From a virus (Duplodnaviria > Heunggongvirae > Uroviricota > Caudoviricetes): a DNA stretch of 9,766 bases. The position numbers were made by a program, and so were the translations under genes. The stretch is from the IMG/VR virus record IMGVR_UViG_2695420792_000004. One strand, 5' to 3'. The notes under the pieces are model-generated. The model worked only from the letters and a program-made list of their open reading frames with translations, made no database searches and was not told the origin of the DNA. Shown piece after piece: positions 1,720 through 9,138 of the stretch (position 1 is its first letter; every line of letters starts with the position of its first letter).

Positions 1720-2322
1720 ATGAGCTATTTTCTGCGCAAAAAATGGATGGTAAATTTGTCCGGGGCAGGAAAAATTTTATGGACGCTAAACATGAAAAAA
1801 GATTCGTATCCTTATTTGATTTGCATGACAGTTTCAGGCCTGATCTTTATTTTCCTTTTCTTCTGGTGGCGGGCAGATATTTACAGGGTCACGTTTCTTA
1901 ATCAGAGTATATCCCACTATTACATTCTGTTTAGCATGGGAATAGCTTTTCTGTTATCTCTGTTTTGGGTTAAGAAGGGGATAGTAAAACAAAGCGGCTG
2001 GAAGAGTCTGTCAGCATACCTTAAGGTTTATGCAGGGATGTGCATATTTGCTGGATTTTTTCTGATTATACCCCTTACAACACTAACTTATTTTTTGCCT
2101 GGAGAGACATCGTCTTATGTTGCACCGTATCGGTATACTTCCGGTAGTTCAAAAAGTTGTTCTGGAGCTGAGGTGGATGACCCCGATCTACATGAGAATA
2201 TTCGCATTTGCTATCCGTATGGCAATTATGAGTACGATAATATTATCTATGTTGAAAAGAAAATTAATACATTAGGTGCGGTAGTAACATATGCACAGAC
2301 CGCGCGTGATGATACTGAATGA
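1720..2322 (+). CDS. Hypothetical integral membrane protein: three hydrophobic helices plus an ~75-aa C-terminal soluble tail (200 aa from first ATG; alternative start at 1795 gives 175 aa)
   Basis: Long + strand ORF, opposite in orientation to all flanking early-left genes. Hydrophobic segments YPYLICMTVSGLIFIFLFFWW, YILFSMGIAFLLSLFWV and VYAGMCIFAGFFLIIPLTTLTYFL. Visibly AT-rich; followed by a hairpin terminator at 2357-2380. No family recognised by eye. Confidence 0.55.
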   Translation: MSYFLRKKWMVNLSGAGKILWTLNMKKDSYPYLICMTVSGLIFIFLFFWWRADIYRVTFLNQSISHYYILFSMGIAFLLSLFWVKKGIVKQSGWKSLSAYLKVYAGMCIFAGFFLIIPLTTLTYFLPGETSSYVAPYRYTSGSSKSCSGAEVDDPDLHENIRICYPYGNYEYDNIIYVEKKINTLGAVVTYAQTARDDTE

Positions 2323-5470: not shown

Positions 5471-5603
5471 TTTTTGGGACTCCTGGCTGATTAAGTATGT
5501 CGATAAGGCGTTTCCATCCGTCACGTAATTTACGGGTGATTCGTTCAAGTAAAGATTCGGAAGGGCAGCCAGCAACAGGCCACCCTGCAATGGCATATTG
5601 CAT
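5439..5603 (-). CDS. cIII: cIII, FtsH/HflB inhibitor, 54 aa (below the ORF-track size cutoff; found by manual translation)
   Basis: Minus-strand translation from the ATG at 5603: [54 protein letters not shown], stop TAA at 5441-5439. Matches lambda CIII as recalled. Confidence 0.9.
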   Translation of the reverse strand: MQYAIAGWPVAGCPSESLLERITRKLRDGWKRLIDILNQPGVPKNGSNNYGYPD

Positions 5604-5675
5604 GGTGTGCTCCTTATTTATACATAACGAAAAACGCCTCGAGTGAAGCGTAATTGGTATGCGGTAACGCCGCGC

Positions 5676-6044: not shown

Positions 6045-6062
6045 CTGTTCATATCCTCACAG

Positions 6063-6090
6063 ATAAAAAATCGCCCTCATCTTGGAGGGC
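6063..6090 (-). terminator. Intrinsic terminator in the pL operon, between the 293-aa cargo gene and ea10
   Basis: Minus-strand RNA reads GCCCUCcaagauGAGGGC followed by GAUUUUUUAUCUG: 6-bp GC stem at 6073-6078/6085-6090, U-tract from the A-run at 6063-6070. Confidence 0.6.
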
Positions 6091-6232
6091 AAAGAAGATT
6101 TCCAATAATCAGAACAAGTCGGCTCCTGTTTAGTTACGAGCGACATTGCTCCGTGTATTCACTCGTTGGAATGAATACACAGCGCTGTGTTTATTCTGTT
6201 GTTTGCGTGAAAATGAAATCCGCCTGAGCGGG

Positions 6233-7114
6233 TTATGACCACTTTTTGTTTGGGTTTCGTTGGTGAGCGTGGTTTACAGGATTATTTGATATACCCCATA
6301 ACTCTGACTCGCTTATCTCTACACGAGAGAAAGACCTGCTTTCTTTCAGTTCTTTTATAAACCTAGAACCTAAGATGACATCTATTGTACCAGAAAGTTC
6401 TTGTAAAAGATCTATGTTTTTTCTGAGGAAGAAAATATCTTCTTTATATTTAATTTTTACATAGAATTTATTCTGTATTTTTAATATATCAAAGCATGGC
6501 AGATATCTATATCCCTCATATTTTCGCCACTGCTTAACAATTATAACATCTTTTTCATTTACTGCATTAATCAGCCCAAGACCAAGTACAGGTATGAATA
6601 TTCTATTGTCTGCCGAAAGCGTACAATTATCACCACCAGGCAAATATGTATAAATCATGTCGGAATTTTTATACGCATCAACGAATGCACGTAAGAAGCG
6701 TACATATTTTTGCCATCCGTTTATACCGAATTTACCATATAAGTATTCTTTATTTGTTAGAAGAAAACTATTTGTATCAGGATCCTTATCTACAGACCTG
6801 TCGATAAGATCTCCAACTACGTTTACAAAGTCAAAGACAGAGTTTAATAAGAACAATTGTCTTTCAGTAGGGCGAATTTCAATTATGTAGCCAGGATGAA
6901 GACGATATTGCATCTGCTTACGAAGTATACCGAACGCTTGGGTCCGAGCATCTGAAAGCAACTTCTTGTCGCCATCGCCGTGAGCATTGTTTCTAATAAA
7001 ACTGATATAATTTGCTAATTTTTCAGCCTCTTTTTTGTGTTTTTTTCGCTCTGATGCTGAGTCTATTGGTTTTGGTATGGACTTGTAATCAATCTTCTTC
7101 ATTACGTACCTCAT
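6233..7114 (-). CDS. Hypothetical 293-aa soluble protein of unknown function; cargo gene in the position lambda uses for ral/sieB
   Basis: Uninterrupted 882-nt ORF; ATG at 7114-7112 overlaps the N stop TGA at 7113-7111 (ATGA). Visibly AT-rich relative to flanking genes. Lys-rich N-terminus (KKIDYKSIPKPIDSASERKKHKKEAEK); no hydrophobic helices or signal peptide evident. Hairpin 6220-6231 plus U-rich tract directly after the stop. No family recognised by eye. Confidence 0.75.
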   Translation of the reverse strand: MRYVMKKIDYKSIPKPIDSASERKKHKKEAEKLANYISFIRNNAHGDGDKKLLSDARTQAFGILRKQMQYRLHPGYIIEIRPTERQLFLLNSVFDFVNVVGDLIDRSVDKDPDTNSFLLTNKEYLYGKFGINGWQKYVRFLRAFVDAYKNSDMIYTYLPGGDNCTLSADNRIFIPVLGLGLINAVNEKDVIIVKQWRKYEGYRYLPCFDILKIQNKFYVKIKYKEDIFFLRKNIDLLQELSGTIDVILGSRFIKELKESRSFSRVEISESELWGISNNPVNHAHQRNPNKKWS

Positions 7115-7434
7115 GCCAATGGAATGGATTCCCCTTTAACCTTTTGTCTTCCTTGACAAGTTATACCGAACTCACCTGGCTTGCTATACCAAACTCGATG
7201 ATTCTTGCGCTCAATACGTTGCAGGTTGCTTTCAATCTGTTCGTGGTATTCAGCCAGCACCGTAAGGTCTATCGGATTCAGTGCGCTTTCTACTCGTGAT
7301 TTCGGTTTGCGATTCAGCGAGAGAATAGGGCGGTTAACTGGTTTAGCGCTTACCCCAACCAACAGGGGATTTGCTGCTTTCCATTGAGCCTGTTTCTCTG
7401 CGCGACGTTCGCGGCGGCGTGTTTGTGCATCCAT
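7111..7434 (-). CDS. N: Antitermination protein N (107 aa)
   Basis: From the ATG at 7434: MDAQTRRRERRAEKQAQWKAANPLLVGVSAKPVNRPILSLNRKPKSRVESALNPIDLTVLAEYHEQIESNLQRIERKNHRVWYSKPGEFGITCQGRQKVKGESIPLA, with the Arg-rich boxB-binding motif at the N-terminus. The track ORF (7111-7566) has a spurious upstream extension. The C-terminal ~30 residues differ from lambda N as I recall it. Confidence 0.93.
   Translation of the reverse strand: MDAQTRRRERRAEKQAQWKAANPLLVGVSAKPVNRPILSLNRKPKSRVESALNPIDLTVLAEYHEQIESNLQRIERKNHRVWYSKPGEFGITCQGRQKVKGESIPLA

Positions 7435-7785: not shown

Positions 7786-9138
<1,353 letters not shown>

What the first reader, a model, noticed from the sequence alone, without database searches (positions are those of the whole stretch)
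6233..7114. AT-rich 293-aa gene fused by an ATGA overlap to N, in the position lambda uses for ral/sieB
Seen in sequence: an 882-nt ORF whose start codon overlaps the N stop (7111-7114), so it is read as part of the pL/N-antiterminated early-left transcript. It is visibly AT-rich against the surrounding lambda-like genes, with a weak hairpin plus U-tract right after its stop (6209-6231) and the strong terminator at 6063-6090 before ea10. The protein is soluble with a Lys-rich N-terminus, and I recognise no domain. Established knowledge: in lambda this slot holds ral (restriction alleviation) and sieB (exclusion/abortive infection) and is a variable cargo position among lambdoid phages. Inference: a single-gene anti-phage defence, exclusion or anti-restriction factor of an undescribed family is the most plausible role; function is not determinable from sequence alone.
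Basis: partly seen in the sequence, partly recalled or inferred. Interest (0 to 1): 0.82.

Follow-up and report, generated by a model that had tools for sequence, protein, structure and literature searches.

The report
Long Nun-tailed, TnpB-like phage 434 protein
This AT-rich gene after N in phage 434-type prophages encodes a protein that ends in the same short peptide phage HK022 Nun uses to jam RNA polymerase, attached to a large body that looks like the nucleic-acid-recognition half of a TnpB/Cas12 nuclease, so it is probably a new kind of transcription-arrest (exclusion) factor.

Summary
The ORF is real and is the most AT-rich stretch of the window (GC 0.346 vs 0.459). It is phage 434 gp48, present in about 1.7% of complete E. 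coli genomes. The proposed ATGA-overlap start is probably wrong: the conserved start is the next ATG (7102), giving 289 aa, with a GAGGT Shine-Dalgarno.

The protein is not domain-less. Its last 14 residues (VNHAHQRNPNKKWS) are identical to the RNA-polymerase-arresting C-terminus of HK022 Nun (PDB 6ALG). Homologues at 36-68% identity (46%, 42% and 36% from Pantoea, Erwinia and Morganella prophages; 68% from a metagenomic contig of unknown host) keep N97, H98, H100, R102, K106, K107 and W108. The tail is the most constrained part of the gene.

The gene always follows N, or the put-like segment in one N-less lineage, and has its own terminator.

Best reading: a Nun-type arrest factor with a new targeting module. 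Its target and biological role are inferred, not shown.

GenBank's phage 434 record already notes the Nun tail. The TnpB-like core, the wider superfamily with an alternative tail, and the selection evidence appear to be undescribed.

The parts
6233..7102 (-). Coding sequence of the 289-aa protein (phage 434 gp48 / WP_001299183); stop codon TAA at 6233-6235
   Evidence: ORF. 99.7% identical to OL657226 CPT_434_48 and identical to the RefSeq calls. PHROG 12139 over the full length, E 8e-206. dN/dS 0.25 between the two E. coli alleles.
7108..7112 (-). Shine-Dalgarno GAGGT, 5 nt before the ATG at 7102-7100; it overlaps the N stop codon TGA (7111-7113)
   Evidence: Annotated as a ribosome-binding site in the phage 434 record. 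The same arrangement is present in L007.
7112..7114 (-). In-frame upstream ATG forming the ATGA overlap with N; probably not the start
   Evidence: No Shine-Dalgarno within 20 nt upstream. The equivalent ATG in L007 is closed by TAA after two codons.
6908..7057 (-). N-terminal basic two-helix hairpin (aa 16-65), found only in the Nun-tailed subfamily
   Evidence: AF2 helices H16-38 and H43-65, pLDDT 84-95. Net charge +8 for aa 1-66. Absent from the GKRR-tail relatives.
6446..6892 (-). Core domain (aa 71-219) with a TnpB/Cas12 WED+REC-lobe-like fold
6332..6442 (-). Long connecting helix (aa 221-257)
   Evidence: AF2 helix H221-257, at lower confidence.
6305..6343 (-). Conserved motif ESRSFSRVEISES (aa 254-266), shared with the GKRR-tail relatives as S-x-x-Y-S-R-V-D-F
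   Evidence: Invariant columns in alignment A2; aligned with the distant relatives in A4.
6236..6277 (-). Nun-type arrest peptide VNHAHQRNPNKKWS (aa 276-289)
   Evidence: Identical to Nun residues 96-109 in PDB 6ALG. PHROG 5632 'Nun-like' E 7e-5. Invariant N-H-A-H-x-R-x3-K-K-W in homologues at 36-68% identity. Lowest pN of any segment.
6166..6279 (-). DNA segment nearly identical to the HK022 nun 3' end plus its 3' flank; a mosaic junction inside the gene
   Evidence: Alignment A1: similarity starts about 45 nt before the stop and runs to the point where HK022 has its IS903 insertion.
6210..6232 (-). Gene-proximal weak terminator (CCCGC-TCAG-GCGG + AUUUCAUUUU)
   Evidence: Equivalent hairpin plus T-run, with compensatory stem changes, directly after the stop in L005/L080, L007, L088, L105 and L132.
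6151..6182 (-). 14-bp perfect hairpin in the 3' untranslated region
   Evidence: RNA fold of 6050-6240, z-score -4.84.
6062..6092 (-). Strong intrinsic terminator before ea10
   Evidence: Terminator scan: 8-bp stem, 5 GC pairs, T-run. Annotated as a terminator in the phage 434 record.
7111..7434 (-). Lambda-type N gene (107 aa), the invariable upstream partner
   Evidence: Translation MDAQTRRRERRAEKQ.... Annotated as the antiterminator. N or an N-like gene precedes the long form in 26 of 30 viral loci and, on reading the ORFs, also in L132; L071 has no upstream sequence and L080 has cI plus a put-like segment.

Best explanation
The gene encodes a 'long Nun': a transcription-arrest factor built from two parts.

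Part 1 is a C-terminal, intrinsically disordered peptide identical to HK022 Nun residues 96-109. [quoted passage not shown] There it locks the enzyme to its nucleic acids so that it cannot translocate.

Part 2 is a ~255-aa body that replaces Nun's small arginine-rich boxB-binding motif. It consists of a basic helical hairpin, a domain with the fold of the WED+REC (nucleic-acid-recognition) lobe of TnpB/Cas12 with no nuclease lobe, and a long helix. The body would tether the warhead to particular elongation complexes by binding a nascent RNA structure or duplex DNA. That raises the local concentration of the tail, which is how boxB binding works for Nun.

The gene is made with N from pL as an immediate-early product, and possibly also in the lysogen. 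The phage's own N-modified (or put-modified) polymerases are proposed to be immune. The likely victims are therefore competing phages, other mobile elements or host transcription.

Shown here: tail identity and its selective conservation; the fold of the core; the conserved position and private terminator; purifying selection.

Inferred: RNAP arrest by this protein; what the body binds; self-immunity; the exclusion role.
For: - **Tail identity.** The last 14 aa are identical to Nun 96-109 in the RNAP-Nun complex 6ALG and hit PHROG 5632.
- **Functional residues kept.** Only Nun 87-109 is ordered in that structure and holds all known arrest determinants. The residues mutated there because they make the key contacts, including all mutants known to abolish Nun activity in vivo, include N97, H98, H100, R102, K106, K107 and W108; N103 was the control (PMC5386594). 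Homologues at 68, 46, 42 and 36% identity keep these seven residues and vary at positions 101, 103, 104 and 105.
- **Selection.** Synonymous sites are saturated between lineages (pS 0.75-0.9), yet the tail has the lowest pN (0.10-0.15, against 0.19-0.41 for the whole gene). dN/dS between the two E. coli alleles is 0.25.
- **Tail as an exchangeable unit.** The tail plus 3' flank is shared at the DNA level with HK022 nun.
- **Architectures.** Apart from truncated remnants, the tail occurs at C-termini in only two forms, ARM-type short Nuns and this long form.
- **Locus.** The 42% homologue occupies the nun slot, directly after a cI-like repressor gene and a segment nearly identical to the HK022 cI-nun spacer (which I take to include putL), in a locus with no N gene between cI and it. 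Where upstream sequence is available, all other lineages sit 1-10 nt after an N or N-like gene and are followed by a private terminator.
Against: - No experiment exists on this protein.
- Nun residues 87-95, including H93 and R94 (R94A strongly lowers RNAP binding), are not conserved in the long form. Intrinsic affinity for RNAP may therefore be low.
- Sequence-level support for a TnpB relationship is marginal: hhalign P 0.014 and probability 3%, and no Pfam hit for any of 20 members. The fold rests on one AF2 model built from 20 sequences.
- No guide-like or other conserved RNA lies next to the gene, and the ligand of the core is unknown.
- Phage 434 carries lambda-type N and nut, so a lambda-nut target as in HK022 would be self-harming. 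The target must differ and has not been identified.
- The promoter scan gives no evidence for expression in the lysogen.
- PADLOC has no match.
Confidence: 0.55

Rival explanations
1. Host take-over factor. The protein is made with N at the very start of lytic growth. Through its Nun tail it arrests unmodified host RNA polymerase genome-wide. Phage transcription complexes carrying N (or put RNA) are protected, so resources shift to the phage. The TnpB-like body would give general nucleic-acid or elongation-complex affinity and not sequence specificity.
For: - The gene lies in the immediate-early segment, always next to the antitermination device.
- The Nun tail arrests any elongation complex when concentrated, and overexpressed Nun is toxic.
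- put-modified RNAP resists Nun-dependent termination, and N occupies a neighbouring path in the cavity.
Against: - Lambda and most lambdoid phages do without such a gene: only 93 of 5426 E. coli genomes have it, although 2287 of 5426 match some part of the 2-kb N-to-cIII query. It is therefore accessory.
- HK022 nun mutants grow and lysogenize normally.
- Immunity of N-modified complexes to the tail is inferred and has not been shown.
Confidence: 0.15
2. Phage-internal regulator. The protein arrests or terminates the phage's own early transcripts at particular sites, for example to time the lysis-lysogeny decision or to limit leftward transcription. It would be targeted by the TnpB-like domain to a 434 sequence or RNA.
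For: - Tight linkage to N or put, and to a terminator, in every lineage.
- Known TnpB-derived proteins have been exapted as transcription regulators (PMC10691335; the TldR preprint listed).
Against: - The gene is AT-rich accessory cargo.
- It is absent from lambda, which shares a near-identical N. 2287 of 5426 E. coli genomes match part of the N-to-cIII query, but only 93 carry this gene.
- The same gene accompanies quite different immunity regions and both N-type and put-type antitermination. That argues against a fixed cis target in the phage.
Confidence: 0.12
3. The Nun tail is a passenger. The gene acquired the nun 3' end by mosaic recombination. The real function lies in the core domain, for example DNA mimicry or binding, anti-restriction or another exclusion mechanism like the ral/sieB genes it replaces. 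In this reading the tail does not engage RNA polymerase.
For: - A DNA-level mosaic junction lies about 45 nt before the stop codon, with the 3' flank shared with HK022.
- Stx phages carry dead 45-aa nun remnants at the same place.
- Distant relatives of the core carry a different tail.
- One relative lies near an ArdA-family anti-restriction gene.
Against: - The tail is present in every long-form lineage down to 36% identity. Its DNA has diverged, but the functional Nun residues are invariant.
- It is the most constrained segment of the protein.
- A chance in-frame scar would not be maintained this way.
Confidence: 0.08

Closest known systems
HK022 Nun transcription termination/arrest factor (P18683; PDB 6ALG; PHROG 5632)
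   Same: - The C-terminal 14 residues are identical (Nun 96-109), including H98, H100, R102, K106, K107 and W108.
- The tail is disordered and sits at the extreme C-terminus.
- The gene is the first or second of the pL operon, next to N or put.
- It has a private terminator after the stop codon.
- One lineage occupies the nun slot.
- The tail plus 3' flank is exchangeable at the DNA level with nun.
   Different: - 289 aa against 109 aa.
- No canonical arginine-rich boxB-binding motif; the body is ~255 aa with a TnpB WED/REC-like domain.
- Nun residues 87-95 (H93, R94) are not conserved.
- In phage 434 it coexists with lambda-type N and nut, so it cannot have HK022 Nun's target.
- Expression in the lysogen is not established.
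TnpB / Cas12 RNA-guided nucleases (IS200/IS605 OrfB; e.g. ISDra2 TnpB 8H1J, RdCas12n 9UDI) and their nuclease-dead derivatives (TldR, Cas12k, Cas12m)
   Same: - Residues ~71-219 have the WED (OB barrel) plus inserted four-helix REC topology.
- The N-terminal motif P-x3-Q-x3-[LI]-x3-[LF]-(x)-G is in the same place as in TnpB.
- Like TldR, Cas12k and Cas12m, it would use the scaffold for binding and not for cutting.
   Different: - The whole NUC lobe (RuvC and the zinc-finger/TNB domain) is absent, not just inactivated.
- There is no adjacent guide-RNA-like element or Rfam hit.
- There is no transposon context.
- Sequence similarity is at noise level: 11% identity and hhalign probability 3%.
- Descent from TnpB is plausible but unproven.
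Lambda Ral / SieB (occupants of the same slot in lambda)
   Same: Same genomic slot between N and ea10; accessory, variable cargo of the early-left operon.
   Different: No sequence or fold relationship. ral is 66 aa and sieB is read from the opposite strand in NC_001416. Their mechanisms (restriction alleviation, abortive exclusion) are unrelated to RNA polymerase arrest.
PHROG 12139 (unknown function)
   Same: Full-length match, E 8e-206. The distant GKRR-tail relatives also hit its core region.
   Different: The PHROG carries no functional annotation, so it adds a name and nothing about mechanism.

Membership tests
Nun-type transcription arrest factors (HK022 Nun) | C-terminal arrest peptide with H98, H100, R102, K106, K107 and penultimate W108 at the extreme C-terminus | tested here: met
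   14/14 residues identical to Nun 96-109. One codon follows W. These residues are invariant across the long-form family.
Nun-type transcription arrest factors (HK022 Nun) | Upstream part of the ordered arrest segment (Nun 87-95, including H93 and R94, which contact upstream DNA) | tested here: not met
   The aligned residues are SELWGISNNP with no H or R. Short Nuns keep D-[AV]-[MI]-x-[RKH]-[VK] before VNHAH, but long forms do not. R94A lowers binding but not maximal activity.
Nun-type transcription arrest factors (HK022 Nun) | N-terminal arginine-rich motif that binds boxB of nut RNA | tested here: inconclusive
   There is no canonical ARM. A Lys/Arg-rich helix (aa ~16-38; ERKKHKKEAEK, or RRAARK / RRRKADKK in homologues) is present but variable and of unknown function.
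Nun-type transcription arrest factors (HK022 Nun) | Location at the start of the pL operon beside the antitermination element, with its own downstream terminator | tested here: met
Nun-type transcription arrest factors (HK022 Nun) | Arrests RNAP translocation; excludes a specific superinfecting phage; suppressed by rpoC Nun-resistance alleles | not testable with these tools
   Needs in vitro transcription and plating assays.
TnpB/Cas12 superfamily | REC lobe: WED OB-barrel with a helical REC domain inserted between b1 and b2 | tested here: met
TnpB/Cas12 superfamily | RuvC (RNase H-fold) nuclease domain with a D-E-D triad, and a TNB/zinc-finger insertion | tested here: not met
   The protein ends 70 residues after the WED-like strands with a single helix and a disordered tail. 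No Pfam OrfB_IS605 or RuvC hit in any of 20 members.
TnpB/Cas12 superfamily | Associated guide RNA (omega RNA / crRNA) encoded next to the gene | tested here: not met
   No Rfam family is adjacent in the window or in 11 related loci. The intergenic spaces are short and not conserved between lineages. A novel RNA cannot be excluded.
TnpB/Cas12 superfamily | Detectable sequence homology to TnpB profiles | tested here: inconclusive
   hhalign aligns family residues 71-96 with TnpB 6-31 (the P-x3-Q motif), but with P 0.014 and probability 3%.
Known anti-phage defence systems (PADLOC-DB 2.0) | Match to any defence-protein profile | tested here: not met
   Zero hits for the window protein and for 8 relatives.

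The most novel reading that the evidence does not exclude
A nuclease-less TnpB REC lobe has been exapted as the targeting module of an RNA-polymerase-jamming peptide.

In this reading phage 434 gp48 and its relatives are sequence- or structure-specific 'guided roadblocks'. They dock on a defined DNA or RNA feature of a rival element through the WED/REC cleft and inject a Nun-type tail into the approaching or departing polymerase.

The wider superfamily (REC-lobe core, S-x-Y-S-R-V-D-F motif, and the alternative conserved tail ...GGLPSLGKRR, found in mobile-element and defence-island-like contexts of unknown bacteria) would then be a general design: one recognition domain with interchangeable C-terminal effector peptides. 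Short Nun proteins might be reduced derivatives of it.
Probability: 0.25. Interest if true: 0.85.

Novelty: new variant of a known kind. Interest (0 to 1): 0.72.

Why it matters
Nun has been the only example of its mechanism: a phage peptide that crosslinks RNA polymerase to its nucleic acids, aimed by a tiny RNA-binding motif at a single rival phage. This gene suggests the same warhead is mounted on a completely different and much larger targeting body. That body resembles the DNA/RNA-recognition half of TnpB/Cas12.

If it works as proposed, three things follow.
- It broadens the biology of transcription-arrest exclusion beyond HK022 versus lambda.
- It provides the first case of a TnpB-like REC lobe working without any RuvC domain.
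- It suggests a modular design (recognition domain plus short polymerase-jamming peptide) that could be repurposed as a programmable transcription block.

The gene sits in phage 434, a textbook phage, and in pathogenic E. coli prophages (O103, O121, O145). Every tool needed to test it already exists.

Tried and rejected
- **Family libraries.** Pfam, NCBIfam and PADLOC on the protein gave no hits. Pfam on all 20 family members gave only scattered noise.
- **First AF2 model.** With 4 sequences the model had pLDDT 43 and was unusable. It was replaced by the 20-sequence model.
- **Other structure and sequence searches.** The PDB profile search found nothing. The viral fold library (BFVD) gave nothing significant. 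The afdb50 library was not available.
- **Locating distant relatives.** The search for related loci on the GKRR subfamily failed twice because the patterns were too degenerate. Their hosts remain unknown; all are metagenomic.
- **Plasmids.** No copies found.
- **'Recombination scar' reading of the tail.** Considered because of the DNA junction and the dead nun remnants in Stx phages. Rejected because diverged homologues keep the tail under strong constraint.
- **Guide RNA.** Considered because of the TnpB-like fold. No Rfam hit and no conserved flanking non-coding region. The structured 3' UTR is shared with HK022 nun, so it is not specific to this protein.
- **Resemblance of residues 25-34 (KKEAEKLANY) to the lambda N ARM (RRAEKQAQW).** Noted but not pursued, because the aromatic position is Cys in most homologues.
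- **Promoter scan for lysogenic expression.** Not above chance.
- **Literature.** Searches for the accessions, for 'Nun C-terminal peptide' and for TnpB plus Nun found no description of this protein.
Full report
**1. What is in the sequence**

The window is the early-left and immunity region of a phage 434-type lambdoid prophage. On the minus strand it reads int, xis, exo, bet, gam, kil, cIII, ea10, the gene in question, N, hex and the 434 repressor. The 882-nt frame at 6233-7114 exists, and its first ATG does overlap the N stop codon.

It is the most AT-rich part of the window. GC is 0.346 and GC3 is 0.303, against 0.459 for the remainder, and only 0.1% of equal-sized windows are lower.

A weak hairpin with an interrupted U-tract follows the stop codon (6210-6232). 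Next come a 14-bp perfect hairpin (6151-6182) and a strong terminator (6071-6092) before ea10. Lambda has ral, orf28 and sieB in the same slot.

**2. The start codon**

The ATGA-overlap ATG is unlikely to be the start.
- It has no Shine-Dalgarno sequence, while the ATG at 7102 has GAGGT five bases upstream.
- The phage 434 record, RefSeq and PHROG 12139 all define a 289-aa protein from that ATG.
- In the 68%-identical homologue the overlap ATG is closed by TAA after two codons.

The Shine-Dalgarno overlaps the N stop codon, so coupling to N translation is still likely. No terminator was predicted between N and the gene. The gene is therefore an immediate-early gene together with N and does not need antitermination to be transcribed.

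**3. Identity and distribution**

The protein is 99.7% identical to phage 434 gp48 (OL657226). Its depositors labelled it 'Nun C-terminal peptide-containing protein'. RefSeq calls it hypothetical.

It occurs in 93 of 5426 complete E. coli genomes and covers at least 80% of the query in 83 of them. There are two allele groups, at >=99% and 95-99% identity (overall range 97.6-100%). One copy is interrupted by IS1 and a few are truncated. For comparison, 2287 of 5426 genomes match some part of the 2-kb N-to-cIII query. No copy is on a plasmid.

Among 5.8 billion clustered proteins only four clusters match. An exhaustive profile search adds a few more. Full-length members come from E. coli, Pantoea agglomerans, Candidatus Erwinia dacicola and Morganella morganii, all named 'hypothetical protein'.

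**4. The tail**

PHROG 5632 ('Nun-like transcription termination factor') matches the last 20 residues. The PDB search aligns the last 14 residues, VNHAHQRNPNKKWS, identically with Nun residues 96-109 in the RNA polymerase-Nun complex 6ALG.

In that structure only Nun 87-109 is ordered, and it contains all known arrest determinants. The residues chosen for mutagenesis because they appeared to make important interactions were H93, R94, N97, H98, H100, R102, K106, K107 and W108; that set included all mutants previously found to abolish Nun activity in vivo. N103 served as the control (PMC5386594).

At the DNA level the window and HK022 are nearly identical from about 45 nt before the stop codon to about 80 nt after it, and unrelated upstream. 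That raised the possibility that the tail is only a recombination scar. It is not, for three reasons.
- Homologues at 68, 46, 42 and 36% identity all end in V-N-H-A-H-x-R-x-x-x-K-K-W(-S). The seven tail residues N97, H98, H100, R102, K106, K107 and W108 are invariant, and variation is confined to positions 101, 103, 104 and 105.
- Their tail codons differ at many synonymous positions.
- With synonymous sites saturated between lineages (pS 0.75-0.9), the tail has the lowest non-synonymous divergence of any segment: pN 0.10-0.15, against 0.19-0.41 for the whole gene. Between the two E. coli alleles dN/dS is 0.25.

The recent DNA exchange with nun therefore shows that the tail and its terminator behave as an interchangeable module. 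One difference from Nun is that residues 87-95, including H93 and R94, are not conserved. R94A weakens binding but not maximal arrest. The long form may therefore depend more on tethering by its body.

**5. Where the tail occurs**

I scanned for the back-translated invariant residues. The scan found at least 120 viral contigs and 8 species genomes. Three hits with the motif far from a stop codon are chance matches.

All others place the motif 0-1 codons before the stop. Apart from truncated remnants, they fall into two architectures.
- 95 short genes, of which the intact ones (83-124 aa) have varied N-terminal arginine-rich motifs. These include HK022-type and lambda-N-like ARMs.
- 30 long genes, with open frames of 276-305 codons.

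**6. Position**

- In 26 of the 30 long-form viral loci a lambda-type N or N-like gene lies immediately upstream by tblastn. Reading the ORFs adds an ARM-bearing gene upstream in L132. L071 has no upstream sequence.
- In the Erwinia-type lineage (L005, L080) the gene instead directly follows a cI-like repressor gene and a segment nearly identical to part of the HK022 cI-nun spacer, with no N gene in between. I identify that segment as the putL region from memory; the put/nun relationship is the one HK022 is known for.
- Every lineage has a GC hairpin plus T-run directly after the stop codon, with compensatory stem changes.

This is the organisation of nun.

**7. The body**

A first AlphaFold model from four sequences failed. 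With 20 sequences the model reached pLDDT 79.2 and pTM 0.70. Residues 10-220 are mostly above 80, and most of the final ~30 residues fall below pLDDT 50.

The fold searches agree.
- Foldseek against the PDB puts nine Cas12 proteins on top, at weak E-values.

The predicted topology is one strand (71-77), four helices (80-145), then strands with one flanking helix (152-219). This matches the published ISDra2 map: WED is residues 1-12 plus 117-176, REC is 13-116 inserted between b1 and b2, and the TAM duplex is held in the WED/REC cleft (PMC10097598).

Nothing corresponds to the RuvC or zinc-finger domains. Known exapted TnpBs retain an inactivated RuvC (PMC10691335).

Sequence support is marginal. 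hhalign aligns only the segment expected from the fold (family 71-96 with TnpB 6-31, the P-x3-Q motif), but at P 0.014 and probability 3%. Pfam sees nothing. I therefore treat 'TnpB REC-lobe-like fold' as well supported and 'derived from TnpB' as plausible.

No known RNA family or conserved non-coding element accompanies the gene.

**8. A wider superfamily**

The exhaustive search also found 213-326-aa proteins at 17-26% identity that share the core and the motif S-x-x-Y-S-R-V-D-F. They lack the N-terminal hairpin and end in a different conserved peptide...L-x-G-[RK]-x-V-x-G-G-L-P-S-L-G-K-R-R. An independent profile (PHROG 12139) confirms the core homology.

They are rare and metagenomic. Some sit beside methyltransferase and HNH genes, DUF4365, a large helicase, or ArdA/ParB/RadC-type leading-region genes. 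Their tail has no known function.

**9. Mechanism proposed**

The literature supplies these facts.
- The Nun tail arrests any elongation complex with a hybrid of 9 bp or longer when concentrated.
- boxB merely tethers it, and excess Nun is toxic (PMC4124055; PMC5386594).
- put-modified polymerase reads through Nun-dependent termination.
- Lambda N enters the catalytic cavity beside the upstream DNA and runs along the hybrid (PMC8632103).

I infer that gp48 delivers the same warhead and is tethered by its TnpB-like body to an as yet unknown RNA or DNA feature. I also infer that the phage's own N-modified or put-modified complexes are spared. That would explain the invariable linkage to N or put.

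The natural role would be exclusion of competitors, as for Nun. Alternatives are host shut-off and phage-internal regulation. None of this has been tested experimentally.

**10. Novelty and verdict**

The Nun-tail resemblance is already recorded in GenBank. I found no paper describing the protein, its fold, its family or its conservation.

It is best filed as a new variant of a known kind: a Nun-type arrest factor with a new, TnpB REC-lobe-like targeting module. Its interpretation (an exclusion-type cargo gene) is partly right, but it missed both recognisable parts of the protein.

Noticed in passing
window 1720-2322 (+): A second AT-rich (GC 0.37-0.40) cargo ORF of 200 aa with hydrophobic segments. 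It is read opposite to the early-left genes. The phage 434 record calls it 'putative membrane protein'.
   Followed up: no
window 7786-8262 (-): The Hex (repressor-protection) gene region has an unresolved start. The mechanical ORF is 158 aa, the 434 record annotates 405 nt and notes that the literature inferred a wrong start, and RefSeq nt.
   Followed up: no
window 5558-5616 (-): Rfam Lambda_thermo (cIII thermoregulator) match at 88.5 bits, the only Rfam family above threshold in the window.
   Followed up: yes
window 6151-6182 (-); L003 about 2665: A 14-bp perfect hairpin in the 3' UTR between the two terminators. In HK022 the IS903 copy is inserted in the loop of the same hairpin.
   Followed up: partly
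L045, L048, L059, L060, L100 (IMG/VR): 88-aa proteins that join a lambda-N-like arginine-rich motif (MDAQARRREKRKEKQEEWK...) to a Nun tail, that is, N-ARM/Nun-tail hybrids. Many other short Nun variants carry different ARMs.
   Followed up: partly
L038 3257-3292 and 3556-3591 (-): One viral contig carries two Nun-tail genes in tandem (88 aa and 102 aa).
   Followed up: no
L088 3116-3430, L105 7673-7987, L132 1108-1434: The N-like genes just upstream of the diverged long forms have ARM-type N-termini. They share a C-terminus (CLP-x-V-x-[IM]-[FY]...[TS]-A-R) unlike that of lambda N.
   Followed up: no
P0008 (96 aa, metagenomic): A chimera of the first 23 residues of Bet with the last 73 residues of this protein, implying a rearranged or deleted prophage variant.
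   Followed up: no
L004 2450-2587 (phage PA28) and Stx1a phages: A 45-aa remnant of the nun 3' end, with an intact tail, sits downstream of an N-like gene. It marks the nun 3' end as a recurrent mosaic boundary.
   Followed up: partly
P0010-P0027; loci L008-L013: Distant relatives share the core domain but carry a different, strongly conserved C-terminal peptide (...GGLPSLGKRR). They are rare metagenomic genes; some lie in mobile-element or defence-island-like neighbourhoods. Hosts are unknown.
   Followed up: partly
L002 4470-5683; hit H80 (NZ_CP062851): IS3 is inserted between gam and kil in the otherwise identical prophage of strain 2015C-3163. IS1 interrupts this ORF in one O9:H10 strain.
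   Followed up: no
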